Source: an uncultured Gammaproteobacteria bacterium | GTDB taxonomy: Bacteria; Patescibacteriota; Patescibacteriia; UBA2591; UBA6264 | DNA: 30,932 bases | Assembly: GCA_964494785.1 (NCBI GenBank) | Contig: CAZBSA010000001.1 | Span: 1 to 30,932 of the forward strand | Reading direction: 5' to 3' | Shown here: positions 3,709 to 30,096 of the stretch, piece by piece | How the letters are laid out: every line of letters starts with the position of its first letter | How positions within the stretch are numbered: the stretch's first letter is position 1 | Translations under genes and position numbers: made by a program | The notes under the pieces: generated by a model | What the model was told of the DNA's origin: nothing | Seen by the model: the letters and a program-made list of their open reading frames with translations, nothing else | Databases searched by the model: none

Positions 3709-4569
3709 TTATTGTTTACCTAAAAGTATTTTAGCTTCATCTGTTAAACTAATTAAAGTGTCATGATAAATTTTAGTTTCTTTTTTATAAAAATCTCTTT
3801 TTTTATTTAAAAACTCCTTACAAGTAATTATATCTTTAGAAAATAAAGTTTTCCTAACAAAAGAATTAGCGCTTTTTAAAATCGTAATTGGGTATAACTT
3901 TTTCTTATCAATTAGCCTTTCTAATCCCGAACCTTTGGGGTGTTTCCAACCTAATAGTCTCACTTTTTCGCATTTACTATATTGAATTGCCATATTAGAA
4001 AACTTTGTATTGGAAATCAGCCAAGGATAATCAAATGACTGTTTTTTATTATTTGCTTTTTGTAAATCTAAGAATCTAGCTTTAGTATAAAGAGCGGTTT
4101 TAATACCTGATCTTATTCCAGCATCATTATGATATTTACATTCTACCATATAATTTAAACCCTTCCCAGTTTCTTGCCAGGGAATCGCTTCTTTTTTAGA
4201 GGCTTTAGAAACAATATCTACTTCGTGTTTAACACATTTCCCTGATAATAAATCAGGCATAAAAGCCTTATATCCATATTCGTTCAAAAAACTGCAAATA
4301 AATTTTTCAAAAATAAAACCAGCTGGCCCTAATGCCAGCACAGATTGCTTAAGATTATAGCGAGTTGCGAGTCGAGGATTTTCATGATGTAAAAAATTTA
4401 GCACTAAATCAAGTATTTCTCTAGTTGTAATTCCTTGATATAAATTATCTTTAACCTTTTTTGCAATCCTGCGAGCTAATTTTTCATTAGCGCCTGCTTT
4501 TTTACAAGTTCTTATAATTTTTTCTATTTTAAATTCTTCTTTTCTCCCCGAAGCTTTTAAAACTTGCAT
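3709..4569 (-). CDS. ATP-cone domain fused to a PD-(D/E)xK restriction-endonuclease-like (Mrr-like) domain
   Basis: N-terminal VLKASGRKEEFKIEKI...AG is an ATP-cone signature. GPAGFIFEKF, HEVDIV and VECKYHN give the E...D...ExK nuclease triad. Confidence 0.8.
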   Translation of the reverse strand: MQVLKASGRKEEFKIEKIIRTCKKAGANEKLARRIAKKVKDNLYQGITTREILDLVLNFLHHENPRLATRYNLKQSVLALGPAGFIFEKFICSFLNEYGYKAFMPDLLSGKCVKHEVDIVSKASKKEAIPWQETGKGLNYMVECKYHNDAGIRSGIKTALYTKARFLDLQKANNKKQSFDYPWLISNTKFSNMAIQYSKCEKVRLLGWKHPKGSGLERLIDKKKLYPITILKSANSFVRKTLFSKDIITCKEFLNKKRDFYKKETKIYHDTLISLTDEAKILLGKQ

Positions 4570-5965: not shown

Positions 5966-5997
5966 AAAGCAAAAGTATCTAAAATTGATTTATAATT

Positions 5998-6027
5998 ATT
6001 ATACTATATTCTTTTCATAACAAACAA
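5998..6027 (-). promoter_or_regulatory. Putative sigma70-type promoter of dnaA (TTGTTT-N18-TATAAT)
   Basis: Minus-strand TATAAT at 6003-5998 and TTGTTT at 6027-6022, 18-nt spacer, about 30 nt upstream of the dnaA ATG. AT-rich context makes chance matches likely. Confidence 0.4.
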
Positions 6028-6037
6028 ACTAACAAGC

Positions 6038-6059
6038 TGTGGATAAATTGTGTAAATAA
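6038..6059 (-). promoter_or_regulatory. Tandem DnaA boxes (one perfect TTATCCACA plus a 2-mismatch TTATTTACA)
   Basis: Plus strand TGTGGATAA at 6038-6046 and TGTAAATAA at 6051-6059, 4 nt apart, directly upstream of dnaA. Confidence 0.75.
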
Positions 6060-6100
6060 AAATATTACTACTTATTTAAAACCTACCATACCAAAATGAT

Positions 6101-6128
6101 TTGTCAAGAAATAAAAAAATGTTATAAT
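6101..6128 (+). promoter_or_regulatory. Promoter of the rpmF-nusB-rnc-smc operon (TTGTCA-N16-TATAAT, extended -10)
   Basis: TTGTCA 6101-6106; TG at 6120-6121; TATAAT 6123-6128; about 32 nt before the rpmF ATG. Confidence 0.65.
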
Positions 6129-6160
6129 ATAATCAATTAAAAAAGTAAATAAATAAAAAT

Positions 6161-6361
6161 ATGGCAGTTCCAAAACAAAAAAGATCAAAATCTAGACAAA
6201 AAAGAAGAAAATATCACTTTAAAGTTAAGAATTCTAATTTAAGAAAATGTCCTGAGTGTAAAAAATTGATTCCTCCTCACCAAGCATGTCCTTATTGCGG
6301 TTATTATAAAGGTAAAAAAGTCACCAAAGAAGACAATAAAGATAATAAAGATAAAAAATAA
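6161..6361 (+). CDS. rpmF: 50S ribosomal protein bL32 (Zn-binding form)
   Basis: [16 protein letters not shown]; CPEC...[11 protein letters not shown]. Confidence 0.97.
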
Positions 6362-6366
6362 GCTTT

Positions 6367-6807
6367 ATGGCTAAAAGACATATTGCTAGAACTATTGCTT
6401 TAAGATCCCTGGCTGAATGGGACTTTAACATTAATGCTTTAAATAAAAAAAAAGACATTAAATTAATATTAAAACGCAATCTAGATGAGTTTACACATAA
6501 TAAATTTGATGCCCAAGATTTTGCTAAAGATTTGACCCATAAAGTCTTAGAAAAAATAGATGAATTAGATAAATACATAAGAAAATATGCTCCTCAGTGG
6601 CCTATAGGCCAAATAACTATTATAGATAGAAATATTTTAAGAATTGGTATTCTTGAAATTATATTCTTTAAAACCCCACCCAAGGTCGCTATAAATGAAG
6701 CCATTGAAATAGCTAAATCCTTTGGCGGAGATACTTCTTCTAAATTCATAAATGGAATATTGGGAGCAATTTATGAAGATATAAAAAGCGATGATGATAA
6801 AAAGTAG
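6367..6807 (+). CDS. nusB: Transcription antitermination factor NusB
   Basis: [37 protein letters not shown]. Confidence 0.96.
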
Positions 6808-6809
6808 TT

Positions 6810-7493
6810 ATGAAAAATAGACTAGATAGCCTTGAAAAAAAAATTAATATTAAATTTAAGGATGAAAAACTTGCCCTTAAAGCTTTAACCCATAAATCTT
6901 ATTTAAACGAACACCCTAACTTAAAAAGAAACGATAATGAAAGATTAGAATTTTTAGGTGATGCTATTTTAGAATTTATTACTACTGATTTTTTATATAA
7001 AAAATACAAAAGTTATCCTGAAGGTAAATTAACTGCATTAAGATCTAGTTTAGTAAATACTAGATCTTTAACTAAATTAGCTCAAAAAATAAATTTAGAA
7101 CAATATATATTTCTTAGCAAAGGAGAAAAAGCTGGTAAAACTCGCTCTACTATATTAGCTAATGTTGTAGAATCTTTAATAGGAGCTATATATTTAGACC
7201 AAGGTATGAAGGCAACTAAAAAATTTGTAACTGAATTTGTCACCCCTAAAATTAACATTATTTTAAAAAAAGAAAGCTATAAAAATGCTAAAGGACAACT
7301 TCAAGAAATTACTCAATCAAAAATAAAAACAACCCCTACTTATAAACTTCTTTCCTCAACTGGACCTGAGCATGATAAAATATTCAAAGTGGGGGTTTTT
7401 ATTAACGAAAAAAAAATAGCCATCGGTAAGGGCAAAAGTAAACAAAGAGCTCAAATAAAAGCAGCTCAAAAAGCTATTAAAAAATTAAAATAA
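6810..7493 (+). CDS. rnc: Ribonuclease III
   Basis: ALTHKS, NERLEFLGDA signature, ESLIGAIYLD, C-terminal dsRBD (KGQLQE...GPEH...GKGKSKQRAQ). Confidence 0.97.
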   Translation: MKNRLDSLEKKINIKFKDEKLALKALTHKSYLNEHPNLKRNDNERLEFLGDAILEFITTDFLYKKYKSYPEGKLTALRSSLVNTRSLTKLAQKINLEQYIFLSKGEKAGKTRSTILANVVESLIGAIYLDQGMKATKKFVTEFVTPKINIILKKESYKNAKGQLQEITQSKIKTTPTYKLLSSTGPEHDKIFKVGVFINEKKIAIGKGKSKQRAQIKAAQKAIKKLK

Positions 7494-7495
7494 GA

Positions 7496-9709
7496 ATGTA
7501 TTTAAAAAAAATAAAAATTCAAGGTTTTAAATCTTTTGCTAATAAAACTGTCCTCTCTTTTCCAAAACCAGAAGAGGACAGATTTAACATTATTAGTATT
7601 GTTGGCCCAAATGGCTCAGGCAAATCAAATGTTTTAGATGCAATCCAGTGGGGGTTAGGAGAACAAAGCATGAAATCTTTAAGAAGCAAAAAATCAGAAG
7701 ATATTATTTTTTCTGGGTCTAAAGAAAAAAGGCCCAAGAATAAAGCAGAGGTAACTCTTTACTTTGACAACCAGGCTGGTAAAAGCCCGATTGATTATAA
7801 AGAATTTACTATAACAAGAACTATTTTCCGAGATGGTACTAGTAAATATAAATTAAATAAAGACGAGGTAAGACTAAAAGATATATTACTACTTTTAGCA
7901 AAGACTAACTTTGGTCAAAAAAGTTATAGTATTGTAAGCCAAGGCATGGTAAATCAAGTCCTTATAAGCTCTCATAAAGAAAGAAAAGAATTTTTTAATG
8001 AAGCTACCGGGGTACAAAAATATATTTATAAAAAAGAAAACGCTTTAAATAAAATAGAAAAAAGCCAAGAAAACCTTAAAGAAGCAAAAATTGCATTAAG
8101 AGAAATAACCCCAAGAATGCGCTCCTTAACTAGACAAATCAAAAAACTATCTAAGAAAAAAGATATTAAAGAGAAATTAACTAATTCACAAATTCAATAT
8201 TATGGTAAAAACATAAAAACAATCAACCAAAAAATTGAGCAAAATAATAATAAAAGGCAAGAAATTGCTAAAAAACAAAAAGAAGTTAAAAAAACATTAA
8301 ATAATCTTCAAGATCAATCTAAAAAAATTGTTTATAAAAAACAGGAAAATAAATATCAAGATCTGCAAAATAAACAACAAAAGCACTTAGATACTAAAAA
8401 CCAACTCATTACCCAACGCTCTGAACTAAAAGCAAAAATAGAAATTTTAAAAAATCAATTAAAAGAAAAACAAGAAACTAATAGAAAAGAAAACATTGAA
8501 ATCACTAATGCTAATAAATTATTTAAAAAATTAAAACAAATAAATAATCTTCAAAAAGAACAAATAAAAGAAATTAAAAATATAAAATCCTTAAGTGAAA
8601 TTGAAAAAATCCAACAAATCTCTCAAAAAGTTTTTAATAAGCTAAATTCTTTGTTTGATTTATTTAAAAAAACTAATTTTGAAAATAAACCTAAAAATAA
8701 TAATAAATTAAAAAAAGAAAAAATTAATGACTTAAAAAATAAATTAGAAAATATTGATAAAAATATTAAAACAGTTAACACTAATTTAGAACAAATTAAA
8801 AAAGATCTTAATCAATTTAATAATGTAGAACAAGAAAAAAGAGAAAAATTATTAAAATGGCAACAAGATACTCAAAAACAGCAAGCCAAATTAAACGAAA
8901 TTAATAATAAATTAAATAAAATAGATATAGAAAACACCCGCTTAAAAACAAAAAAAGAAGACCTAGAAGCAGAAATTAAAAATGAAATGGGACTTTCCTT
9001 AAAAGAGTTATTAAAAAAAGACATTAAAAACAAAGAAATAAACTATGATCACATTTCAAAACTGAAAGAAAAACTGAGTATTATAGGAGGCATTGATCCT
9101 AGCATAGAAGACGAGTACCCAAAAGTTAAAGAAAGATACGACTTTTTAAAATCCCAAACAGATGATTTATCAAAAACCATAAAATCCCTTTTAAAAATCG
9201 TTAAACAATTAAATAAAAAAATAGAATCCACTTTTAAACAAAAATTTAGTCAAATTAATACAGAATTTAATGAATATTTTCAAACTATTTTTGGTGGTGG
9301 TAAAGCTAAAATAACTTTTCAAGAAAAAGATATAGAACAAGACAAAAAAAATAATTCTTTAATCAGTAATATAGAAATTTTTGCCTCTCCTCCAGATAAA
9401 AAAATTAAAAATATTGAAATGTTGTCAGGAGGAGAAAAAGCCTTAACATCTTTAGCATTAATTTGTGCTATTATAGCTATTAATAAACCCCCTTTTGTAA
9501 TACTAGATGAAGCAGATGCTGCCCTTGATCAAAAAAATTCTGCTCGTTTTGCTAATATATTAAAAGATTTAAGAAAACATACTCAATTTATTGTCATAAC
9601 ACATAATCAACAAACAATACAAATCGCAGATATTTTATATGGTGCCACTATGAAGAAAACAGGCGCTTCTAAATTAGTTTCCCTAAAGCTAGAAGAAGAA
9701 AGTATTTAA
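7496..9709 (+). CDS. smc: SMC-family chromosome segregation ATPase, short and apparently hinge-less
   Basis: IQGFKSFA, Walker A GPNGSGKSN, EDIIFSG, Q-loop SQG, signature LSGGEK, Walker B/D-loop ILDEADAALD, H-loop QFIVITH, pre-head ERYDFL. Directly follows rnc as in Firmicutes. Confidence 0.9.
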   Translation: MYLKKIKIQGFKSFANKTVLSFPKPEEDRFNIISIVGPNGSGKSNVLDAIQWGLGEQSMKSLRSKKSEDIIFSGSKEKRPKNKAEVTLYFDNQAGKSPIDYKEFTITRTIFRDGTSKYKLNKDEVRLKDILLLLAKTNFGQKSYSIVSQGMVNQVLISSHKERKEFFNEATGVQKYIYKKENALNKIEKSQENLKEAKIALREITPRMRSLTRQIKKLSKKKDIKEKLTNSQIQYYGKNIKTINQKIEQNNNKRQEIAKKQKEVKKTLNNLQDQSKKIVYKKQENKYQDLQNKQQKHLDTKNQLITQRSELKAKIEILKNQLKEKQETNRKENIEITNANKLFKKLKQINNLQKEQIKEIKNIKSLSEIEKIQQISQKVFNKLNSLFDLFKKTNFENKPKNNNKLKKEKINDLKNKLENIDKNIKTVNTNLEQIKKDLNQFNNVEQEKREKLLKWQQDTQKQQAKLNEINNKLNKIDIENTRLKTKKEDLEAEIKNEMGLSLKELLKKDIKNKEINYDHISKLKEKLSIIGGIDPSIEDEYPKVKERYDFLKSQTDDLSKTIKSLLKIVKQLNKKIESTFKQKFSQINTEFNEYFQTIFGGGKAKITFQEKDIEQDKKNNSLISNIEIFASPPDKKIKNIEMLSGGEKALTSLALICAIIAINKPPFVILDEADAALDQKNSARFANILKDLRKHTQFIVITHNQQTIQIADILYGATMKKTGASKLVSLKLEEESI

Positions 9710-9792: not shown

Positions 9793-10833
9793 TTACTCCC
9801 TGGCTGAAGGAATCAAAACAGGCTTTAAATTATCAAAATCCTCTAATATTAACCCTATCCCCCTTATTACAGAGGTTTCAGGCTCATTAGTAATATAAAC
9901 TGGGACTTCTATTTTTTCTTTGGCTAATTTTTCAAAACCACCTAATTTAGAACCACCACCGGAAAACATAATACCTCTCTCATAAATGTCAGAAACTAAT
10001 TCTGGCGGGCTAGATTCTATAGTATCATGAATAGATTCGATAATAGTGTTTAATAAAGGCATTATAGCTTCCCGTATTTGAGATTCCGTTACAATAATCT
10101 CTTTGGGTAAACCACTTCGTAAATCTCTACCCTTAACAGACATCTCTTTATTTTTATCAGACTGAAAAGCAGAACCTATTTGTGTTTTTAATTTAGATGC
10201 AGTTTGATTACCCAAAAGTACGCCAAACTCTTCTCTTACAAAACTAATTATTCTAGAATCAAATGATTCACTACCTATTTTTAAAGATTTCCACTCCACA
10301 ATCCCATTTAAAGAAATAACAGCTATTTCAGTTAAACCGCCCCCTATTTCTACCACCATACTTCCAATAGACTCTTGAACCGGCAAACGAGCCCCTATAG
10401 CTGCTGCCATTGCTCTTTGTACTAAATGTACTTGCTTTGCCCCAGCTTGTAGTATAACGTCCTCTAAAGACTTTTGTTCTACTTCTGTTACTTCCAAAGG
10501 GACGGCTGTTATTACAGTTGGTCTAGATACTAAAGCAAAAACATCTCTGTGTACTTTTTCAAAAACATTTTTAAGCATTTTTTCTGTCACTTCAAAGTCT
10601 GAAATCACTCCATGATGAAGGGGTTTTACTACTTCTATATGTTCAGGCACTTTACCCTCCATTTTTAAAGCATTTTGGCCAAGAGTAATAATTTGATCTT
10701 GTCTTTTATTAATAGCAACAATAGATGGTTCACTCATCATAATCCCCCTATCTTTTAAATAAACCCTAGTGTTGCTGGTTCCTAAATCAAGACCAATATC
10801 TTTTGAAATTGTTCCTAATATTTTTTTAAACAT
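9793..10833 (-). CDS. mreB: MreB-like actin homolog (divergent paralog)
   Basis: DIGLDLGTSNT, EPSIVA, PLHHGVISDF, AMAAAIGA, EIGGGLTE, IKTQIGSA-like LKTQIGSA, VKGRDL, SGGGS, GIG. Catalytic residues altered (see findings). Confidence 0.88.
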   Translation of the reverse strand: MFKKILGTISKDIGLDLGTSNTRVYLKDRGIMMSEPSIVAINKRQDQIITLGQNALKMEGKVPEHIEVVKPLHHGVISDFEVTEKMLKNVFEKVHRDVFALVSRPTVITAVPLEVTEVEQKSLEDVILQAGAKQVHLVQRAMAAAIGARLPVQESIGSMVVEIGGGLTEIAVISLNGIVEWKSLKIGSESFDSRIISFVREEFGVLLGNQTASKLKTQIGSAFQSDKNKEMSVKGRDLRSGLPKEIIVTESQIREAIMPLLNTIIESIHDTIESSPPELVSDIYERGIMFSGGGSKLGGFEKLAKEKIEVPVYITNEPETSVIRGIGLILEDFDNLKPVLIPSARE

Positions 10834-17205: not shown

Positions 17206-18213
17206 TTAATTAACTGATAAAATACTTCTTTTATAAGAATCTAAATTACTAAGAGCTTGTCCAGTTCCTTTTGCTACTGATAAAAGAGGTGCATCAGCTG
17301 CATAAGCAGGCACACCTATATCCTGAGTAAGTAATTTATCTAAATTCCTTAAAAGAGCGCCTCCACCGGATAAAACCATACCCTTTTCTATAACATCAGC
17401 TGAAAGTTCTGGGGGCGTTTCGTGTAATACTGACTTCACTGCTACTACAATAGAATTAAGCTCATTTTGAATTGCTTCAGTAACATCAGTTGAATCAATG
17501 GTAATTACTCTAGGCAAACCTAAAACCATATCTCTCCCCTTAATGTCCATTTCTTTAGCTTTTTCTAGCTCTAAGGCAGAGCCAATTTTAATTTTTATCT
17601 CTTCAGCACTTCTTTCTCCAACAGCTAAATTATATTTCTTTTTAATAAAATCTGCTATAGCAGCATCCAATTTATTCCCAGCTACTCTAACTGAAGTACA
17701 TTCAACTATTCCCCCTAAAGATATAACAGCAGCTTCAGTAGTACCTCCACCAATATCAATAATCATATGCCCAGAAGCTGAACCAATAGGAATCCCTGAA
17801 CCAATAGCAGCAGCAATAGGCTCTTTAATAATATAAGCTGCTTTTGCACCAGCTTTCATAGTAGCATCTACAACAGCCCTTCTCTCAGTTGAGGTAATTC
17901 CGCCTGGAACAGCAACCATCACTTCTGGCTTAAATAAATTAAGTCTACCAATTGCCTTTGACACAAAATAATTAAGCATAGCTTCGGTTGAACGATAATC
18001 TGCAATAACTCCATCTTTGAGCGGCTTTTTAGCAATAATTGTTCCCGGGGTCCTTCCAATCATTTCTTTTGCTTCATCTCCCACAGCTAAAACTTTTTTA
18101 TCTACGGTAGAAATAGCAACAACCGAAGGCTCGTTTATGACTATACCTTGGCCTGGCAAATATACTAAAATATTAGTTGTGCCTAAATCAATACCTATTT
18201 TTTTAGAAAACAT
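17206..18213 (-). CDS. mreB: Rod shape-determining protein MreB (canonical)
   Basis: IGIDLGTTN, NEPSVVA, MIGRTPG, PLKDGVIAD, KEPIAAAIG, DIGGGTTE, AEEIKIKIG, GRD, LSGGGALL, VAKGTG. Confidence 0.97.
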   Translation of the reverse strand: MFSKKIGIDLGTTNILVYLPGQGIVINEPSVVAISTVDKKVLAVGDEAKEMIGRTPGTIIAKKPLKDGVIADYRSTEAMLNYFVSKAIGRLNLFKPEVMVAVPGGITSTERRAVVDATMKAGAKAAYIIKEPIAAAIGSGIPIGSASGHMIIDIGGGTTEAAVISLGGIVECTSVRVAGNKLDAAIADFIKKKYNLAVGERSAEEIKIKIGSALELEKAKEMDIKGRDMVLGLPRVITIDSTDVTEAIQNELNSIVVAVKSVLHETPPELSADVIEKGMVLSGGGALLRNLDKLLTQDIGVPAYAADAPLLSVAKGTGQALSNLDSYKRSILSVN

Positions 18214-18331: not shown

Positions 18332-19057
18332 TTAATCTGATTTATGGTCTTTATCATATAAATATTTAGTAGTTCTAAATAAAGACTCAAATTTTCCAGC
18401 ATCTGACCAAAACCCATCTAAAATCTCAAAAGTAGCTGTACCTTGATTAATATAAAAATTATTAACATCAGTAATTTCGTATTCTCCCCTGTCAGATAAA
18501 GTTAATCCTTCAATAACATCAAAAACTTGATTATCAAACATATAAAGCCCAGTTACAGCTAAGTTGCTTTTAGGTTTATCTGGCTTTTCTTCAATATTTA
18601 TAACTTTATCTTTTTCAACCTCAGCTACTCCAAACCTATTAGCCTTCTCTACTTCTTTGAAGAAAAGCTTAGCACCCTTTTTTTGTTCTTTAAAATCTTC
18701 AACATACCCTCCAATATTATCTTCAAAAATATTATCTCCTAAAATTACAGCTATTTTTTCTCCATCTGAGAAATCTCTAGCCCTTTTTAGAGCATCTGCA
18801 ATCCCTTTAGGAGCAGTTTGAATAGCATAGTTTAGATTAACCCCAAATCTTTTGCCATCATTTAAAAGCTCTAAAAAATCTCCAGCATGACCTTTGCCAG
18901 AAATAATTAAAATATCTTCAACTCCAGCTTTAGCTAACTTTTCTAAAGGATAATAGATCATTGGTTTTTTATAAACCGGTAAAAGATGTTTATTTGTGAC
19001 TTTTGTACAGGGCATAAGTCTAGTCCCTCTGCCCCCAGCTAAAATAACTCCTTTCAT
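18332..19057 (-). CDS. rfbA: Glucose-1-phosphate thymidylyltransferase (short form)
   Basis: GVILAGGRGTRL, NKHLLPVY.KPMIYYP, YAIQ..P.GIA.A, LGDNIF, FGVAE, EKP, AVTGLY, RGEYEITD, WSDAG. Clustered with rfbBDC. Confidence 0.9.
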   Translation of the reverse strand: MKGVILAGGRGTRLMPCTKVTNKHLLPVYKKPMIYYPLEKLAKAGVEDILIISGKGHAGDFLELLNDGKRFGVNLNYAIQTAPKGIADALKRARDFSDGEKIAVILGDNIFEDNIGGYVEDFKEQKKGAKLFFKEVEKANRFGVAEVEKDKVINIEEKPDKPKSNLAVTGLYMFDNQVFDVIEGLTLSDRGEYEITDVNNFYINQGTATFEILDGFWSDAGKFESLFRTTKYLYDKDHKSD

Positions 19058-19076
19058 AATTTTTTATAAATTAAAT

Positions 19077-20036
19077 TTATTTAAGTTTTTCCCACCACCA
19101 TTTATTATTTTTATACCAATTAATAGTATTTTCAAGGGCATCACTAAAATTAAATTCAGGCTGCCAGCCTAAATTACGAATCTTAGAATTATCTAAAGCA
19201 TATCTAAAATCATGCCCTTTTCTATCAGTTACAAACTTAATTAACTCCTTATTGGGTTGAATTTTTTCTTGCAATAATTTAGCAATTTCTAAATTACTTT
19301 TTTCCTCTCCTGTCCCAATATTATATATTTCGCCAATTTTTCCCTTTTTTAAAACTGTATCAATACCTTTACAATTATCTAAAACATGAATCCACTCACG
19401 TATATTACTACCATCTCCATATAAAGGCACTTTTTTTTCTTCAAATAAGTTAGTGGTAAAAAGTGGTATAAACTTCTCTACATGTTGATAAGGCCCAACA
19501 TTATTACAAGAACGTGTAATAAGGGCAGGAAAGTTATAAGTTTTAATATAAGATCTTACCAACACATCAGCAGCTGTTTTTGAAGCTGAATAAGGATTAT
19601 TTGGCTTTAATGGATCTTTTTCTCGAAATTTACCTTTTTTTGCACTACCATATACTTCGTCTGTGCTAATTTGAATAAAACGATCTATATTATAAAATTT
19701 AGAAACATTTAATAAAACATTAGTCCCCAAAACATTTGTTTTGGTAAAATTAAGAGAATTTTTAATAGAATTATCTACATGTGATTCAGCCGCAAAATTT
19801 ATCACTGCATCTGGCTTTTCATTTTCCATGATTTGAGAAACTATACTTTCATCAGCTATATCACCTTTTATGAGTTTATAATTATCATTATCCTCTAAAT
19901 CTTTAAGGTTGTCTGGATTACCAGCATAAGTTAACTTATCTAGATTAATAATTTTAACTGAAGAATCAGAGTTTAATTTATATCTAATAAAATTAGAGCC
20001 AATAAAACCTGCCCCACCAGTAACTAATATTTTCAT
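19077..20036 (-). CDS. rfbB: dTDP-glucose 4,6-dehydratase
   Basis: VTGGAGFIGSNF, DKLTYAGN, AAESHVD, STDEVYG, PYSASK, LYGDG..IREWIHV, DRKGHDFRYA. Confidence 0.96.
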   Translation of the reverse strand: MKILVTGGAGFIGSNFIRYKLNSDSSVKIINLDKLTYAGNPDNLKDLEDNDNYKLIKGDIADESIVSQIMENEKPDAVINFAAESHVDNSIKNSLNFTKTNVLGTNVLLNVSKFYNIDRFIQISTDEVYGSAKKGKFREKDPLKPNNPYSASKTAADVLVRSYIKTYNFPALITRSCNNVGPYQHVEKFIPLFTTNLFEEKKVPLYGDGSNIREWIHVLDNCKGIDTVLKKGKIGEIYNIGTGEEKSNLEIAKLLQEKIQPNKELIKFVTDRKGHDFRYALDNSKIRNLGWQPEFNFSDALENTINWYKNNKWWWEKLK

Positions 20037-20039
20037 AAA

Positions 20040-20891
20040 TTATATATTTAAATTATTTAAAAATCGTTTTGTAGCATCTTGCCAAGTCGGTGTTTTATAA
20101 TTAAGTATTTTTTCAATAGGAAAATTATTTAAGCTAGTGCTTTGAGGTCTTTTTGCTAAAGTGTCAAAATCGCTTGCCTTAGCCTTTTCTAATTTACCTT
20201 GCCAGCCTACTTGTTTTAAAATTAATTTTGCCCAATCATATTTAGAACATTGACCACTATTTGAAAAATGGTAAAGGCCAAAATTATTAGTTTGAAATAG
20301 CTTAATTGAAACATCTGCTAGGTCATTTACAAAAGTTGGGCTACCTATTTGATCTGATACTATTTTTAAACTATTCTTTTCTTTCGCCCAATTTAAAGCC
20401 TTTAAAGGAAAACTGCTTTTGGGATTTTTTCCAAAAAGCCAAGAGGTTCTTATTATAAAATATTTATTAGCAAAACTTTTAACCATTTTTTCGCCTAAAA
20501 GTTTACTTTGGCCATATTTATTTATAGGATTGGGAATATCAGCAATATTATATTCTTGCTTTTGGCCTGAAAAAACATAATCGCTGCTAAAATGAAATAG
20601 TAATGCATTGATTTTATTGCTAAAGTGGGCAAGATATTTTAAGGCTATACCATTTACTAAAAAAGCTTTTTTCCAATCCTTTTCTGCTTTATCAACCATA
20701 TTATAAGCAGCACAATTAAAAATTATATCAGGTTTTTTACTTAAAATATTTTCTTTTACCTGATCAAATTGAGTAATATCTAAATCTTTTTTGGTCAATA
20801 AAAAAACCTCATTTTCAGAGGATAGTTTTTCTTTAAAACTTTGAGCCAGTTGTCCTTTAGCGCCAGTAATTAAAATCTTTTTATTCTTCAT
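20040..20891 (-). CDS. rfbD: dTDP-4-dehydrorhamnose reductase
   Basis: ITGAKGQL, LDIT, NCAAYNMVDKAE, SSDYVF.G, PINKYGQSK, IIRTSWLFG, IVSDQIGSPT. Confidence 0.95.
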   Translation of the reverse strand: MKNKKILITGAKGQLAQSFKEKLSSENEVFLLTKKDLDITQFDQVKENILSKKPDIIFNCAAYNMVDKAEKDWKKAFLVNGIALKYLAHFSNKINALLFHFSSDYVFSGQKQEYNIADIPNPINKYGQSKLLGEKMVKSFANKYFIIRTSWLFGKNPKSSFPLKALNWAKEKNSLKIVSDQIGSPTFVNDLADVSIKLFQTNNFGLYHFSNSGQCSKYDWAKLILKQVGWQGKLEKAKASDFDTLAKRPQSTSLNNFPIEKILNYKTPTWQDATKRFLNNLNI

Positions 20892-21432
20892 AAGAAAAAT
20901 TATTATTAGACTCTTTTAAACTGGGTAAATTTTTATCTTTTTTAGATAGAATAGGATCTTGAATAGGCCAATCAATACCAATATCTGGGTCATTCCATCT
21001 AATACCCGCCTCATGCTCAGGAGAATACTCTTTGGTGCATTTATACATAATTAAAGAGTTGTCTTTAAGAGAACAAAATCCATGGGCAAAGCCTTCTGGG
21101 ACATAAAGCATCTTTGTATTATCTTCTGACAAAATCTCCCCTATCCATTTACCATAGTTAGGTGAACCTTTTCTAATATCAACTGCTACATCTAAAATTT
21201 TTCCCTTAAGGCAATAAACAAGCTTGCCTTGTGCTTTAGGATTATTTTGAAAATGAAGCCCCCTAATTACACCTTTTTTAGAAACAGAAATATTGTCCTG
21301 CTTAAATTGGGGTACTTTACCATTAAAAAAAGACTCTTTAAAAACTTCTTCAAAATAACCCCTGTTATCTTTAAAGGACCTTAAGCGAAACAATAAAACA
21401 TTATTGTGTTTTTTAGATATTTTAAAAGGCAT
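20881..21432 (-). CDS. rfbC: dTDP-4-dehydrorhamnose 3,5-epimerase
   Basis: DNRGYF, QDNISVS.KGVIRGLHFQ, QGKLV, DVAVDIRKGSP, VPEGFAHGF, GIRWNDP, LSKKD. Confidence 0.96.
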   Translation of the reverse strand: MPFKISKKHNNVLLFRLRSFKDNRGYFEEVFKESFFNGKVPQFKQDNISVSKKGVIRGLHFQNNPKAQGKLVYCLKGKILDVAVDIRKGSPNYGKWIGEILSEDNTKMLYVPEGFAHGFCSLKDNSLIMYKCTKEYSPEHEAGIRWNDPDIGIDWPIQDPILSKKDKNLPSLKESNNNFSYEE

Positions 21433-23122: not shown

Positions 23123-23656
23123 TTAATTGCCATTTTTTGTCTTATCTTTATGATAATACATTTTTCTATCAGCTCTTTTTGAAACTTGTACTAAATTATC
23201 TATTTTCCAAGACTCTATACCATAACTTAAACTAGTTTCTGAACATAAATTATTTTTGTTAATATATTCGTTAAATTGTTTTGTTACTCTTTTTAAAAGT
23301 TTTTTTGAATTTTCCTTGCTAGTTCCAGGTAAGAGAGCCACAAACTCGTCCCCTCCCCATCTAGCTACTAAATCACTTTCTCGACTATTTTCCTCAAGCA
23401 ATTCACCTATTTTAGTTAAAACTTTATCTCCTACATCATGACCAAATTGATCATTAATCCTTTTAAAATTATTAACATCCATCATAACAAAAGTTAAATC
23501 TCTGTCATAGCGACGAGCGTTTGCTAGTTCTGTCTTAGCCACTTCTTCAAAATAACGCCTATTGTAAAGGCCGGTTACCGGATCTTTAAATATATTTTCT
23601 CCCATTTTATTTAATATTGATAATTTATGAAAAAAATCTTTAATTACTTTAAACAT
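23123..23656 (-). CDS. Stand-alone GGDEF diguanylate cyclase
   Basis: DPVTGLYNRR, MDVNNFKRINDQFGHDVGD, I-site RESD, RWGGDEF, SYG, ADRKMY..K. Confidence 0.93.
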   Translation of the reverse strand: MFKVIKDFFHKLSILNKMGENIFKDPVTGLYNRRYFEEVAKTELANARRYDRDLTFVMMDVNNFKRINDQFGHDVGDKVLTKIGELLEENSRESDLVARWGGDEFVALLPGTSKENSKKLLKRVTKQFNEYINKNNLCSETSLSYGIESWKIDNLVQVSKRADRKMYYHKDKTKNGN

Positions 23657-28237: not shown

Positions 28238-29395
28238 CTATTCAACACTTAAAACTTTTTTAAAATCAAAATAATCATTTTTAGAACTCCACAACAAAAA
28301 GCCATAAGCATTGTTATCTAAAACCGCTTGTTTTTGTTTTTTTAAGAAATCTGGCGTAGCCTTATCTTCTTTTGTATCAAAAGCCTGAATCCAGGGCCTA
28401 ATAAAAGTATTTTGATTATTTTTATCTTTAATAAATAAAGAAGCATCTTGAAAACTCTTATTAATAATTTGATATGGTTTTTGAAAAGGATCTTTAATGT
28501 CTTTATATGCACCTTGAAAATACGAAGGATAAAGCATTGGGCAAATATAATCAAAAAATGGATATGCATCTTCCAATCTTTGACCGATATTCATATCAAA
28601 TCCGTCTAAAACATGACTCATAGTCATGCCAAAAAGATCAGCTGAAACTCTAAAATCTTTTAATTCTTTAAACTGATGTTCAAAAAATGATTTTATAATT
28701 TGCTGTTTTGATCTTTTACCTTGCCAAATTGGATACTTAATATCTTTGATATTCCCATCTGAAGGAAATCTAATATAATCAAAGTTAATTTCTTCAAACC
28801 CTAAACTTAATGCTTCTTTTGCTAAAGCAATATTATAATTCCAAACTTGCTTTGAACTTGGATCTACCCAAGAAAGACTGGATGAATCTTTCCATACCTT
28901 GTTAGTTTGTTTGTCTTTTAAAGCAAGCCGCATTTTCTTGCTTGCTAAGGCATTATCTTTAAAAACAGATATTCTTCCAATTACATAAATTCCTTTATCT
29001 TTTAAAAATTTAATAAGTTTTTTAATATTTTGAATTCTTAACTCATAAAGATGATTTTCTCTAGCTAACGGAACCTCGGTTATATAAGAAACCCTGCCAG
29101 TTACATCTTTAATATCAATAACTGCTGCATTCAACCTTGTATTTAAAATAAAGTCGGTTAATTTTTTAATTCTTGCTTTTTCCCCAGCAGTCCAAGAAGA
29201 TATATAAACCCCTTGCGCTTTTACGGGTCCTTGTCTTTTAACCTCGATTTTTTGCTGGAGCATTTTAATAATTTTTACTGTATTAGAAAATTTAAAAGCT
29301 GTGCCAAAGATTATAAATAATATTAAAATAAAGATGGGTAAATAATATACCCACTTTATTTGAGATAAATCTTTTTTAACAAAACTCCAATCCAT
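28238..29395 (-). CDS. Membrane-anchored putative glycoside hydrolase (DUF4015-like TIM barrel)
   Basis: N-terminal TM; GVYI, NAAVIDIKD..G, IGRISVFKD, WVDP, GFEEINFDYIRFP.DG, SADLFG, GQ, DYICPMLYPS, RPWIQAF, GFLLW. Confidence 0.8.
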   Translation of the reverse strand: MDWSFVKKDLSQIKWVYYLPIFILILFIIFGTAFKFSNTVKIIKMLQQKIEVKRQGPVKAQGVYISSWTAGEKARIKKLTDFILNTRLNAAVIDIKDVTGRVSYITEVPLARENHLYELRIQNIKKLIKFLKDKGIYVIGRISVFKDNALASKKMRLALKDKQTNKVWKDSSSLSWVDPSSKQVWNYNIALAKEALSLGFEEINFDYIRFPSDGNIKDIKYPIWQGKRSKQQIIKSFFEHQFKELKDFRVSADLFGMTMSHVLDGFDMNIGQRLEDAYPFFDYICPMLYPSYFQGAYKDIKDPFQKPYQIINKSFQDASLFIKDKNNQNTFIRPWIQAFDTKEDKATPDFLKKQKQAVLDNNAYGFLLWSSKNDYFDFKKVLSVE

Positions 29396-30096
29396 TAAAG
29401 CAATTTAAAGTCATTTATAAATAATCTGAAGTTATAACCTAAATATTCTGCTGCTTTTCTACAATACGCCATTCTGCCTGTAAATATCTCAAAATACTCC
29501 ATAATAGGAACATTACTAGTATCAATCTTTAATCTTAAATCAATATTTTTATTATTATCCACTTTTATATCAGATTGGGTTACAGCATAATTTACCCTAT
29601 CGTGAATGTCTTTAGCAATTTCCTGTTCGCTTTTTGTAGTTACTCTAGAGCGATGAACATCAGATTTATCAGCTATCACAACAATAGCTGAAACAGGGTT
29701 AGTTAATTTCATAGTATCTTTATCATGATTAGCCAAGCATTGTACTATAATAGAAATTTCCTCAGGGGTTAAAGCTAAATTATCTTTTTCCCATTTATCT
29801 TGATCATCCACAACATGAGAAGAAAATACTTGATGGAATAATAAAGCCCCCCAATAATGGTGTCTTGTTCGACCAATAAAATTCCCCATATCTTGACAAT
29901 AACCAGCTATAGCAGATAACTCTTGGGTTCTTTTATCTAAACCTATATCTTTTGCTAATTCTCGAGATCTTTTAGCCACTATATTTGCATGACGGGTACC
30001 ATGCTCTGTAAAATCCATAGCATCCATAGAAATTTGGCTTTGTTTAATAAACTCTGAGATTTGAGAATTTTTTTTAACTTGTTCTAAATTTAACAT
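29395..30096 (-). CDS. HD-superfamily phosphohydrolase-like protein with HD changed to QD
   Basis: TEH..RH, IAGYCQDMGN, NHD, IADKSDV.RSRV, DIHDRVNYAV, MEYFEIF..RM..CR.AA match a widespread short HD family. Stop overlaps the next ATG (TAATG). Confidence 0.8.
   Translation of the reverse strand: MLNLEQVKKNSQISEFIKQSQISMDAMDFTEHGTRHANIVAKRSRELAKDIGLDKRTQELSAIAGYCQDMGNFIGRTRHHYWGALLFHQVFSSHVVDDQDKWEKDNLALTPEEISIIVQCLANHDKDTMKLTNPVSAIVVIADKSDVHRSRVTTKSEQEIAKDIHDRVNYAVTQSDIKVDNNKNIDLRLKIDTSNVPIMEYFEIFTGRMAYCRKAAEYLGYNFRLFINDFKLL

What the first reader, a model, noticed from the sequence alone, without database searches (positions are those of the whole stretch)
7496..9709. SMC with intact ATPase heads but no hinge domain
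Seen: all head motifs are intact, as is the SMC-type pre-head segment (IGGIDPSIEDEYPKVKERYDFL), and the gene keeps the rnc-smc synteny. It is 737 aa, and the middle (aa about 170-580) is continuous K/N/Q/E-rich coiled-coil-like sequence with no Gly-rich globular hinge and no CxxC zinc hook. Established: bacterial SMC is about 1,150-1,200 aa and dimerises through a roughly 150-aa hinge; Rad50/SbcC use a hook. Inference: a minimal condensin with short arms and an unknown or absent apical dimer interface, which would challenge ring and loop-extrusion models. scpA/scpB are not in this window.
Basis: partly seen in the sequence, partly recalled or inferred. Interest (0 to 1): 0.66.

Follow-up and report, generated by a model that had tools for sequence, protein, structure and literature searches.

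The report
Hingeless short-armed SMC of Patescibacteria
This gene is the organism's real chromosome-organising SMC protein, but its dimerising hinge and the outer half of each arm are replaced by a small helical tip, a design shared by hundreds of related ultra-small bacteria and useful for testing what the hinge and arm length do.

Summary
Window 7496-9709 (+) encodes a 737-aa protein with all ABC/SMC head motifs intact, directly after rnc, with no SMC_hinge hit and no CxxC. It is not an assembly artefact. About 240 homolog clusters from independent assemblies (contigs up to 927 kb), none with a hinge annotation, are mostly 720-795 aa, with 13 at 876-902 aa. It is the orthologous SMC: it passes the NCBIfam SMC equivalog cutoff, its best PDB match is the B. 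subtilis Smc head (1e-100), and the rnc-smc-(rpsP-KH-trmD) gene order is kept. Profile alignment shows canonical residues ~321-861 (hinge plus the distal ~200 aa of each arm strand) replaced by ~85 aa. That segment is not featureless: AF2 and family conservation define a ~60-70-aa beta-clamped helical hairpin with no hinge homology and no PDB analogue. Arms are ~157 aa (~22 nm). Patescibacteria hingeless SMCs form one clade (93% bootstrap); Thermoleophilia lost the hinge independently. Hingeless SMCs were reported once before (oceanic Actinobacteria, 2025), not for this phylum. The claim that this challenges ring or loop-extrusion models is overstated, because B. subtilis Smc works with a Rad50 hook in place of its hinge. 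Not tested: ScpAB co-occurrence, a second SMC in the genome, dimer geometry.

The parts
7496..9709 (+). smc gene, 737 aa, hingeless short-armed form
   Evidence: ORF; TIGR02168 607.7 bits against a cutoff of 567.35; hhalign to canonical SMC probability 100, E 1e-146
7496..8014 (+). N-terminal half of the ATPase head (aa 1-173), with Walker A at aa 37-44 (nt 7604-7627) and Q-loop Q149
8015..8485 (+). N-terminal arm helix (aa 174-330, about 157 aa); the head-proximal neck part is highly conserved
   Evidence: AF2 helices 174-279 and 284-320/330; conservation profile; aligns to canonical residues up to about 320
8486..8692 (+). Apical module replacing the hinge (aa 331-399): beta 334-336, helix aA 339-361, turn, helix aB 366-387, beta 390-392, Pro-rich linker
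   Evidence: AF2 fragment model pLDDT 86; conserved hydrophobic core positions 342, 346, 349, 356, 360, 369, 379, 383, 386, 387, 390; no hinge homology, hhalign probability 0.1%; no PDB analogue
8693..8989 (+). C-terminal arm helix, distal part (aa 400-498)
   Evidence: AF2; aligns to canonical residues from about 862
8990..9103 (+). SMC joint (aa 499-536), including the invariant I530, G531 and D534 of IGGIDP
   Evidence: top Foldseek hit is the Smc head with coiled coil and joint, 5xei
9104..9706 (+). C-terminal neck helix and C-terminal half of the head (aa 537-737): signature LSGGE aa 643-647 (nt 9422-9436), Walker B aa 667-672 (nt 9494-9511), D-loop D678, H-loop H703
6810..7493 (+). rnc (RNase III), the conserved upstream neighbour of smc
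   Evidence: Pfam; rnc lies directly upstream of smc in 14 of 24 Patescibacteria loci and in canonical genomes
6161..6807 (+). rpmF and nusB, upstream genes on the same strand

Best explanation
Shown: this is the orthologous SMC (condensin ATPase) of a Patescibacterium of the Paceibacteria/Parcubacteria type, in a lineage-wide derived form. Head, neck and joint are canonical and catalytically intact. The hinge and the distal ~200 residues of each arm strand have been replaced by a ~60-70-aa beta-clamped helical hairpin, leaving arms of ~157 residues (~22 nm) against ~340 (~47 nm). The length of the middle region is tightly constrained in discrete classes. Inferred: the protein still works as a homodimeric SMC motor. 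Two subunits are held together at the arm tip by the apical hairpins, most simply as a four-helix bundle, possibly with the short strands pairing. At the other end they are held by ATP-dependent head engagement, with the strongly conserved neck and cap surfaces binding a kleisin (ScpA, with ScpB). ATP binding and hydrolysis would then drive DNA clamping on the heads and opening and closing of the short arms, organising a chromosome of ~1 Mb or less in a very small cell. The hinge fold is dispensable because only apical dimerisation and a correctly phased arm are required, as shown experimentally for B. subtilis.
For: Identity as SMC: TIGR02168 above its cutoff, RecN, Rad50 and SbcC far below theirs; best PDB sequence match is the B. 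subtilis Smc head at 1.6e-100; top Foldseek hits are Smc head/coiled-coil/joint structures; hhalign to 38 canonical SMCs gives probability 100. Orthology: rnc-smc adjacency and downstream rpsP-KH-trmD across loci. Not an artefact: 240 homolog clusters from two searches, none with a PF06470 annotation, mostly 720-795 aa with 13 at 876-902 aa, on contigs up to 927 kb. Deletion mapping: query 1-324 aligns to canonical 1-320 and query 410-736 to canonical 862-1182. Under selection: catalytic residues invariant in 93 of 93, and head DNA-contact equivalents R63, K66 and R126 conserved; neck and joint at 2.6-3.4 bits against 1.4-2.3 in the distal arm; middle length falls in discrete classes of 264-310 and 395-415 with sharp sub-modes. 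Apical module: conserved hydrophobic core, AF2 pLDDT 84-89 for the two helices plus two short strands, and a wider hydrophobic face on aA than on two-stranded arm segments. Precedent: a Rad50 zinc hook functionally replaces the Bs Smc hinge, and arm-length constraints persist (PMC5344682). That paper reports a minor natural arm-length mode at 163 aa, close to the ~157 aa here.
Against: Dimerisation through the apical module is not shown. The apex has low sequence information: its profile misses 29 of 127 class-1 and 15 of 18 class-2 members. ScpA/ScpB were found neither in the window nor within 10 kb of smc in any Patescibacteria locus, and their presence elsewhere in these genomes could not be checked. 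A second, canonical SMC elsewhere in the genome cannot be excluded with the data held. Engineered B. subtilis mini-Smc proteins were functional only in certain arm-length windows, the shortest reported in the passages read being 253-267 aa, so function at ~157 aa is extrapolated.
Confidence: 0.6

Rival explanations
1. It is a functional orthologous SMC with no apical dimer interface. The two subunits are joined only by ATP-engaged heads, a bridging kleisin or side-by-side arm zipping, and the apical hairpin merely caps the coiled coil or binds DNA or another factor.
For: No dimer evidence could be obtained. The apex is weakly conserved in sequence. The monomer AF2 model satisfies the two short strands intramolecularly. 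SMC arms are known to co-align as rods (own knowledge; PMC5526789 was listed but not read).
Against: The hydrophobic core positions of the apex are 82-100% conserved and aA has a wider hydrophobic face than a two-stranded coil needs. In the passages of PMC5344682 that were read, the B. subtilis hinge was exchanged for another dimerisation domain, and a simple hinge-region deletion served as an smc null strain.
Confidence: 0.22
2. It has changed role. It is a RecN- or Rad50-like DNA-repair or tethering ATPase derived from SMC and works without a kleisin, rather than acting as a condensin.
For: The architecture (short coiled coil, no hinge) resembles RecN. ScpAB was not found in any sequence held. 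The authors of PMC12153180 speculate on a different function for actinobacterial hingeless SMCs.
Against: It occupies the orthologous smc locus. Its RecN and Rad50 HMM scores are tiny (42.8 against a cutoff of 407.85; 63 against 700) while it passes the SMC equivalog cutoff. The neck and joint, which are SMC-specific and kleisin-related, are among the best-conserved parts. No nuclease partner is adjacent.
Confidence: 0.08
3. It is an assembly collapse or deletion inside a low-complexity gene, or a decaying pseudogene.
For: The gene is very AT-rich and repetitive in composition (GC 0.21 for 8001-9000). Logan contigs cover the apex-coding part poorly.
Against: The same architecture and near-identical lengths occur in about 240 independent clusters at 38-84% identity (to the query of the search that found them), on long contigs. 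The reading frame is intact and all catalytic residues are invariant. Contigs of run X1 are colinear over 6800-8368, apart from an uncovered 47 bp, and show no indels.
Confidence: 0.02

Closest known systems
Canonical prokaryotic Smc (Smc-ScpAB condensin; TIGR02168; B. subtilis Smc, PDB 3zgx, 5xg3, 5h68)
   Same: Head halves, all ATPase motifs, neck, joint, antiparallel intramolecular coiled coil, and the rnc-smc locus. Heads are about 45-51% identical to canonical ones.
   Different: No hinge domain. About 540 central residues are replaced by about 85. Arms are about 157 aa instead of about 340. Total length is 737 aa against 1178-1237.
Hinge-less SMC clade of oceanic Actinobacteria (PMC12153180, Environ Microbiome 2025)
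   Same: SMC-type heads and coiled coil, no hinge, no CxxC, closer to SMC than to Rad50/SbcC, and apparently the only SMC in the genomes checked by those authors.
   Different: A different phylum and an independent origin. The Patescibacteria proteins form their own clade (93% bootstrap), while the hingeless actinobacterial (Thermoleophilia) proteins in my set group with canonical actinobacterial SMCs. That paper describes no apical module, synteny or arm-length classes.
Engineered B. subtilis Smc(Zh) and Mini-Smc (Burmann et al. 2017, PMC5344682)
   Same: An SMC with its hinge replaced by an unrelated dimerisation element and with shortened arms. Arm length is restricted to discrete permitted classes.
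   Different: Those are laboratory chimeras with a Rad50 zinc hook. Here the replacement is natural, contains no metal-binding Cys, and the arms (about 157 aa) are shorter than the functional engineered windows read (253-267 aa).
RecN
   Same: SMC-like head with a short coiled coil and no globular hinge. From my own knowledge, RecN dimerises through the end of its coiled coil.
   Different: TIGR00634 scores 42.8 against a cutoff of 407.85. RecN is about 550 aa, lacks the SMC joint and neck signature, and is not at the rnc locus.
Rad50/SbcC
   Same: ABC-type head, antiparallel coiled coil, non-hinge apex.
   Different: No CxxC zinc hook in any family member. No Mre11/SbcD partner nearby. HMM scores are far below cutoff.

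Membership tests
Prokaryotic SMC (TIGR02168 / Smc-ScpAB) | Curated equivalog HMM score above cutoff | tested here: met
   607.7 bits against a cutoff of 567.35, matched in two stretches that skip the middle of the model
Prokaryotic SMC (TIGR02168 / Smc-ScpAB) | Split ABC ATPase head with Walker A, Q-loop, signature motif, Walker B, D-loop and H-loop | tested here: met
   All present and invariant in 93 of 93 homologs
Prokaryotic SMC (TIGR02168 / Smc-ScpAB) | Intramolecular antiparallel coiled-coil arm with a head-proximal joint | tested here: met
   AF2 pLDDT 82.7; top Foldseek hit is 5xei, a Smc head with coiled coil and joint; the arm is about 157 aa rather than about 340
Prokaryotic SMC (TIGR02168 / Smc-ScpAB) | Central hinge dimerisation domain (PF06470) | tested here: not met
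   No Pfam hit at E<=1. hhalign of the apex against the canonical hinge gives probability 0.1%. Controls L038 and L041 do hit PF06470.
Prokaryotic SMC (TIGR02168 / Smc-ScpAB) | Orthologous genomic position (rnc-smc, with the rpsP-trmD cluster downstream) | tested here: met
   Window; 14 of 24 Patescibacteria loci have rnc upstream and 13 have rpsP downstream
Prokaryotic SMC (TIGR02168 / Smc-ScpAB) | Partner kleisin ScpA and ScpB encoded in the same genome | not testable with these tools
   Absent from the window and from within 10 kb of smc in all loci held, but scpAB is not linked to smc in canonical genomes either, and whole genomes could not be scanned
Prokaryotic SMC (TIGR02168 / Smc-ScpAB) | Homodimer joined at the arm tip | not testable with these tools
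Rad50/SbcC | CxxC zinc hook at the coiled-coil apex | tested here: not met
   The single Cys is at 657, and no CxxC occurs in 120 homologs
Rad50/SbcC | Family HMM score and an adjacent Mre11/SbcD nuclease | tested here: not met
   Rad50 63.3 bits against 700 and sbcc 28.1 against 478.5; no nuclease among the neighbours
RecN | TIGR00634 score above cutoff | tested here: not met
   42.8 bits against 407.85
Archaea-specific SMC-related proteins (ASRP, NF045487) | Family HMM score above cutoff | tested here: not met
   61.2 bits against 300
Oceanic actinobacterial hinge-less SMC clade (PMC12153180) | Branches with or at the base of actinobacterial SMCs | tested here: not met
   The window protein lies in a Patescibacteria-only clade (141 sequences, bootstrap 93), separate from the actinobacterial group. 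The published sequences themselves were not available for the tree.

The most novel reading that the evidence does not exclude
The beta-clamped helical hairpin is a third, previously undescribed solution for joining SMC arms, after the hinge and the zinc hook. Hinge loss with arm shortening has evolved convergently at least twice (Patescibacteria and Thermoleophilia/Actinomycetota). This would mean that neither the hinge nor a ~50-nm arm is needed for SMC function, and would give the field a natural ~740-aa minimal condensin.
Probability: 0.35. Interest if true: 0.8.

Novelty: new variant of a known kind. Interest (0 to 1): 0.62.

Why it matters
SMC complexes are thought to need a hinge for dimerisation, and perhaps for DNA binding or gating, and arms of tuned length to load and move on DNA. 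Here a whole bacterial lineage has a natural SMC with no hinge and arms less than half the usual length, while its ATPase, neck and joint stay under strong selection. If it is the sole SMC of these cells, it sets a natural lower bound on what a condensin needs. It supports the engineered result that the hinge fold is dispensable. It also offers a compact protein (~740 aa, ~22-nm arms) that should be far easier to study by cryo-EM, single-molecule assays and simulation than 1,200-aa SMCs. The independent hinge loss in Thermoleophilia, together with the published oceanic actinobacterial clade, suggests this is a recurrent evolutionary route and not a curiosity.

Tried and rejected
1. Assembly collapse: rejected on homolog lengths and synteny. 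Read laying added little because the Logan contigs are 2-7x deep and fragmentary, and positions 8691-8729 were blocked by a filter.
2. A hinge relic in the apex: rejected, hhalign probability 0.1-0.2%.
4. Apex-only profile against 1.84 billion representatives: 19 weak hits, mostly multi-stretch coiled-coil noise. The profile carries too little information to map the module library-wide.
5. ScpA/ScpB search:
   - Seed HMMs built from PDB-verified sequences found nothing in 84 loci.
   - The IMG/VR scan found none.
   - The metagenome scan returned only Firmicutes-like ScpB loci.
   - Improved HMMs from 80 ScpB and 62-69 ScpA sequences still found nothing near any short smc.
   This is uninformative, because canonical genomes also lack smc-scpAB linkage.
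6. An alternative conserved partner next to smc: none. The conserved neighbours are rnc, nusB, RNase HII, rpsP, a KH protein and trmD.
7. The 233-aa ORF with no Pfam hit (29395-30096) as a divergent kleisin: rejected, its sequence looks like an HD-type hydrolase.
8. Literature on SMC or ScpAB in Patescibacteria: nothing found.
9. Matching class 2 arm length to the 238-aa natural mode of Burmann et al.: not convincing. My estimate is about 209 aa, and part of the length difference is a ~45-50-aa head-loop insertion.
10. UGA recoding as an explanation for the interrupted smc in L011 and L017: no, the stops remain under translation tables 4 and 25.
11. Presence in cultivable Saccharibacteria: not established. 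The MAGs labelled Saccharibacteria turned out to be Paceibacteria/Nomurabacteria-like.
Full report
**Observation**

The ORF at 7496-9709 (+) is real. It starts with ATG and encodes 737 aa. It follows rpmF (6161-6361), nusB (6367-6807) and rnc (6810-7493) on the same strand, and dnaA is transcribed divergently upstream.

The head motifs are all present: Walker A GPNGSGKS (37-44), Q-loop Q149, signature LSGGE (643-647), Walker B FVILDE (667-672) and H-loop H703. Pfam finds SMC_N spanning residues 2-725 but no SMC_hinge (PF06470), even at E<=1. Two canonical control SMCs scanned the same way do hit PF06470.

Residues 171-520 are 22% K, 13% N and about 10% each of L, I, E and Q. No glycine occurs between 237 and 499. 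The only cysteine is at 657, and no CxxC occurs in any of the 120 closest homologs. No ScpA or ScpB is encoded anywhere in the window.

**It is not an artefact**

Two homolog searches returned 240 clusters from independent assemblies (JGI, ENA, NCBI, Logan). None has a precomputed PF06470 annotation. They are at 38-84% identity to the query of the search that found them. Most are 720-795 aa long, and 13 are 876-902 aa. Some lie on contigs of 480-930 kb.

A relative whose protein is 51% identical (P0005) shares the entire gene order of the window: leuS, T2SS-E, ATP-cone protein, dnaA | rpmF, nusB, rnc, smc | mreB, proS, an M50 peptidase and RRF.

Public Logan contigs are shallow (2-7x). In one run they are colinear with the window over 6800-8368, apart from an uncovered 47 bp, and show no indels. 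The case against an assembly collapse therefore rests on the homologs, not on reads.

**It is SMC, and the orthologous one**

- NCBIfam's SMC equivalog TIGR02168 scores 607.7 bits against a cutoff of 567.35. RecN (42.8 against 407.85), Rad50 (63 against 700), SbcC and the archaeal ASRP family all fall far below their cutoffs.
- The best PDB sequence match is the B. subtilis Smc head (1.6e-100), covering residues 1-214 and 526-735.
- The top Foldseek hits of the AF2 model are prokaryotic Smc head/coiled-coil/joint structures (5xei, 5xns, 5xg3).
- Across 24 Patescibacteria loci the conserved neighbours are rnc (14), nusB (13) and an RNase HII-like gene (8) upstream, and rpsP (13), a KH-domain gene (9) and trmD (9) downstream. 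From my own knowledge, this is a remnant of the Bacillus order rnc-smc-ftsY-ffh-rpsP-ylqC-rimM-trmD.
- No conserved neighbour of unknown function suggests a replacement partner.

**What is missing**

I ran a profile-profile alignment of 93 family members against 38 canonical SMCs (1035-1237 aa, taken from named genomes). It gives probability 100 and E 1e-146. Query 1-324 aligns to canonical 1-320, and query 410-736 to canonical 862-1182, using Planococcus numbering with the hinge at 520-639. About 540 canonical residues, meaning the hinge plus the distal ~200 residues of each arm strand, are therefore replaced by about 85 residues. The replacement shows no hinge homology (hhalign probability 0.1-0.2%).

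**Anatomy of the protein**

AF2 with the family alignment gives a confident model (pLDDT 82.7). A fragment model of residues 270-465 is sharper (pLDDT 86.2). Together they give:

| Element | Residues |
|---|---|
| N-terminal head half | 1-173 |
| N-arm helix | 174 to ~330 |
| β-strand (conserved I-x-I) | 334-336 |
| Helix αA | 339-361 |
| Four-residue turn | 362-365 |
| Helix αB | 366-387 |
| β-strand | 390-392 |
| Pro-rich linker | 393-399 |
| C-arm helix | ~400-498 |
| Joint (includes the invariant I530, G531 and D534 of IGGIDP) | 499-536 |
| Neck helix | 537-599 |
| C-terminal head half | 600-737 |

The arm is about 157 residues per strand. Scaled from the ~47 nm quoted for the 344-aa B. 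subtilis arm, that is about 21-23 nm.

The apical β-α-α-β module is under selection. Positions 342, 346, 349, 356, 360 and 390 are 98-100% hydrophobic in 93 sequences. Positions 336, 369, 372, 379, 383, 386 and 387 are 82-94% hydrophobic. Proline-enriched positions flank the module. Helix αA has a wider hydrophobic face than two-stranded arm segments (36% of positions against 25-28%).

Foldseek of the fragment finds no significant PDB analogue. The best hits (E 0.2 and above) are generic antiparallel coiled-coil hairpins, and none is an SMC hinge, a MukB hinge or a zinc hook.

**Constraint on the rest of the protein**

All catalytic residues are invariant in 93 of 93 sequences. The equivalents of the B. 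subtilis head DNA-contact residues R57, K60 and R120 are conserved, although the K122 equivalent is not (the role of these residues is from my own knowledge). The neck and joint carry 2.6-3.4 bits per position, against 1.4-2.3 in the distal arm. That fits a retained binding partner on the neck, which in canonical Smc is the N-terminal domain of ScpA.

The distance from the neck block to the joint block falls into discrete classes:

| Class | Distance (aa) | Sequences |
|---|---|---|
| Class 1 (sub-modes 274, 277, 288, 290; this protein is 290) | 264-310 | 127 |
| Actinomycetota outlier (L026) | 336 | 1 |
| Class 2 | 395-415 | 18 |
| Anaerolineae SMC with a hinge and short arms (L038) | 598 | 1 |
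| Canonical | 743-807 | 36 |

Part of the total-length variation is a ~45-50-aa insertion in a C-head loop. The apex profile recognises 98 of 127 class-1 proteins, 3 of 18 class-2 proteins (with the module shifted ~50 residues distally) and 0 of 38 canonical proteins.

**Evolution**

I built a neighbour-joining tree from the head, neck and joint blocks (430 columns, 183 sequences, 100 bootstraps). All Patescibacteria hingeless proteins (123 class 1 and 18 class 2) form one clade with 93% support and no canonical SMC inside it.

Source names for members include Paceibacterota, Parcubacteria, and Buchanan-, Nomura-, Uhr-, Azam- and Ryanbacteria. Some MAG labels (Gammaproteobacteria, Bdellovibrionales, Saccharibacteria) are evidently unreliable. 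For example, the relatives of the "Saccharibacteria" locus L024 are named Paceibacterota or Nomurabacteria.

Separately, 777-789-aa hingeless SMCs occur in Thermoleophilia/Solirubrobacterales (L025, L027, L029). They lie directly after rnc. Their closest heads are canonical actinobacterial SMCs (47-49% identity), and they group with those at 93% bootstrap. That points to an independent hinge loss. A further low-GC Actinomycetota example (L026) also follows rnc, but its placement is unresolved.

**Prior knowledge**

No paper in the searchable library describes SMC or ScpAB in Patescibacteria.

One paper (PMC12153180, 2025; preprint 2024) reports an abundant oceanic clade of "hinge-less" SMCs assigned to Actinomycetes. 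These lack CxxC and are closer to SMC than to Rad50/SbcC. The paper gives no synteny, apical element or arm-length analysis, and does not mention CPR forms. The general phenomenon is therefore known, but this lineage and its apical module are not.

Burmann et al. 2017 (PMC5344682) showed three relevant things:
- Natural prokaryotic arm lengths are multimodal, with modes at 238, 341 and 515 aa and minor modes at 163 and 423 aa. Their survey located arms by finding the hinge, so hingeless proteins were invisible to it.
- Only certain engineered arm lengths function.

The ~157-aa arm found here lies close to their minor 163-aa mode.

**Mechanism**

Shown: this is an intact SMC ATPase with canonical neck and joint, short arms and a conserved non-hinge apical module. 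It sits in the orthologous locus and is the lineage-wide form.

Inferred: it acts as a homodimer joined at the tip by the two apical hairpins, most simply as a four-helix bundle, and at the heads by ATP. A kleisin closes the head end, and the complex acts as a compact condensin on a small chromosome.

The main rival is that there is no apical interface, and the dimer is held only by the heads, a kleisin or arm zipping. A change of role towards RecN-like repair is less likely, given the locus, the HMM scores and the conserved neck. Artefact and pseudogene explanations are effectively excluded.

**What could not be tested**

- Whether ScpA/ScpB or a second SMC exist elsewhere in these genomes: only ±10 kb around genes can be fetched.
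- Whether cultivable Patescibacteria carry this form.

**Verdict**

It is a new variant of a known kind. It is of good interest to the SMC field as a natural experiment on hinge and arm-length requirements.

Noticed in passing
L025:10001-12370, L027:10001-12349, L029:10001-12334 (Thermoleophilia/Solirubrobacterales); L026:10001-12283 (Actinomycetota, GC 0.38): Hingeless 767-789-aa SMCs lie directly after rnc in high-GC Thermoleophilia. They group with canonical actinobacterial SMCs (93% bootstrap), so the hinge was apparently lost independently of Patescibacteria. L026 may belong to the published oceanic clade.
   Followed up: partly
L038:5194-8301 (Anaerolineae MAG): A 1035-aa SMC that keeps a PF06470 hinge but has clearly shortened arms (neck-to-joint distance 598 against about 750). 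It is a natural intermediate-length form.
   Followed up: no
P0066, P0082, P0085 and others (family members); the equivalent site in the window protein is aa 603-622, nt 9302-9361: Many family members carry a ~45-50-aa insertion in the C-head loop between the GGGKAKL strand and the GIEI strand. It accounts for part of the total-length variation.
   Followed up: partly
window 5966-6160: The dnaA-rpmF divergent intergenic region holds the only perfect DnaA box in the window (6038-6046, - strand). Near-matches across the whole window are at chance level (9 against 8.3 expected), so this is a possible dnaA autoregulation site or part of oriC, weakly supported.
   Followed up: partly
window 9793-10833 (-) and 17206-18213 (-): Two MreB/Mbl paralogues lie within 8 kb in a reduced genome. 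Both are also present in the syntenic contig of P0005.
   Followed up: no
window 3709-4569 (-): A 286-aa protein combining an N-terminal ATP-cone with an AF1548-like C-terminal domain, next to dnaA. It is conserved at the same position in the P0005 contigs. Function unknown.
   Followed up: no
window 8001-9000: Extreme composition (GC 0.208, AT skew +0.42), caused by the K/N/E/Q-rich arm coding sequence. Positions 8691-8729 tripped the read-laying filter.
   Followed up: partly
window 23123-23656 (-) and 18332-21432 (-): A stand-alone 177-aa GGDEF diguanylate cyclase domain protein, and a complete dTDP-rhamnose (rfbA/B/D/C-like) operon.
   Followed up: no
L005, L006, L008, L009, L028, L030, L031, L015-L024, L032, L037 (GTDB MAG records): The record titles label these contigs Gammaproteobacteria, Bdellovibrionales or Saccharibacteria, yet they carry Paceibacteria-type hingeless SMCs. 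The relatives of L024 are named Paceibacterota or Nomurabacteria, so these MAG labels look unreliable.
   Followed up: partly
L011:10001-12270 and L017:10001-12229: The smc reading frame is interrupted (after 89 aa and 615 aa) in two MAGs. The stops persist under genetic codes 4 and 25, so these are probably frameshift or assembly errors rather than recoding.
   Followed up: partly
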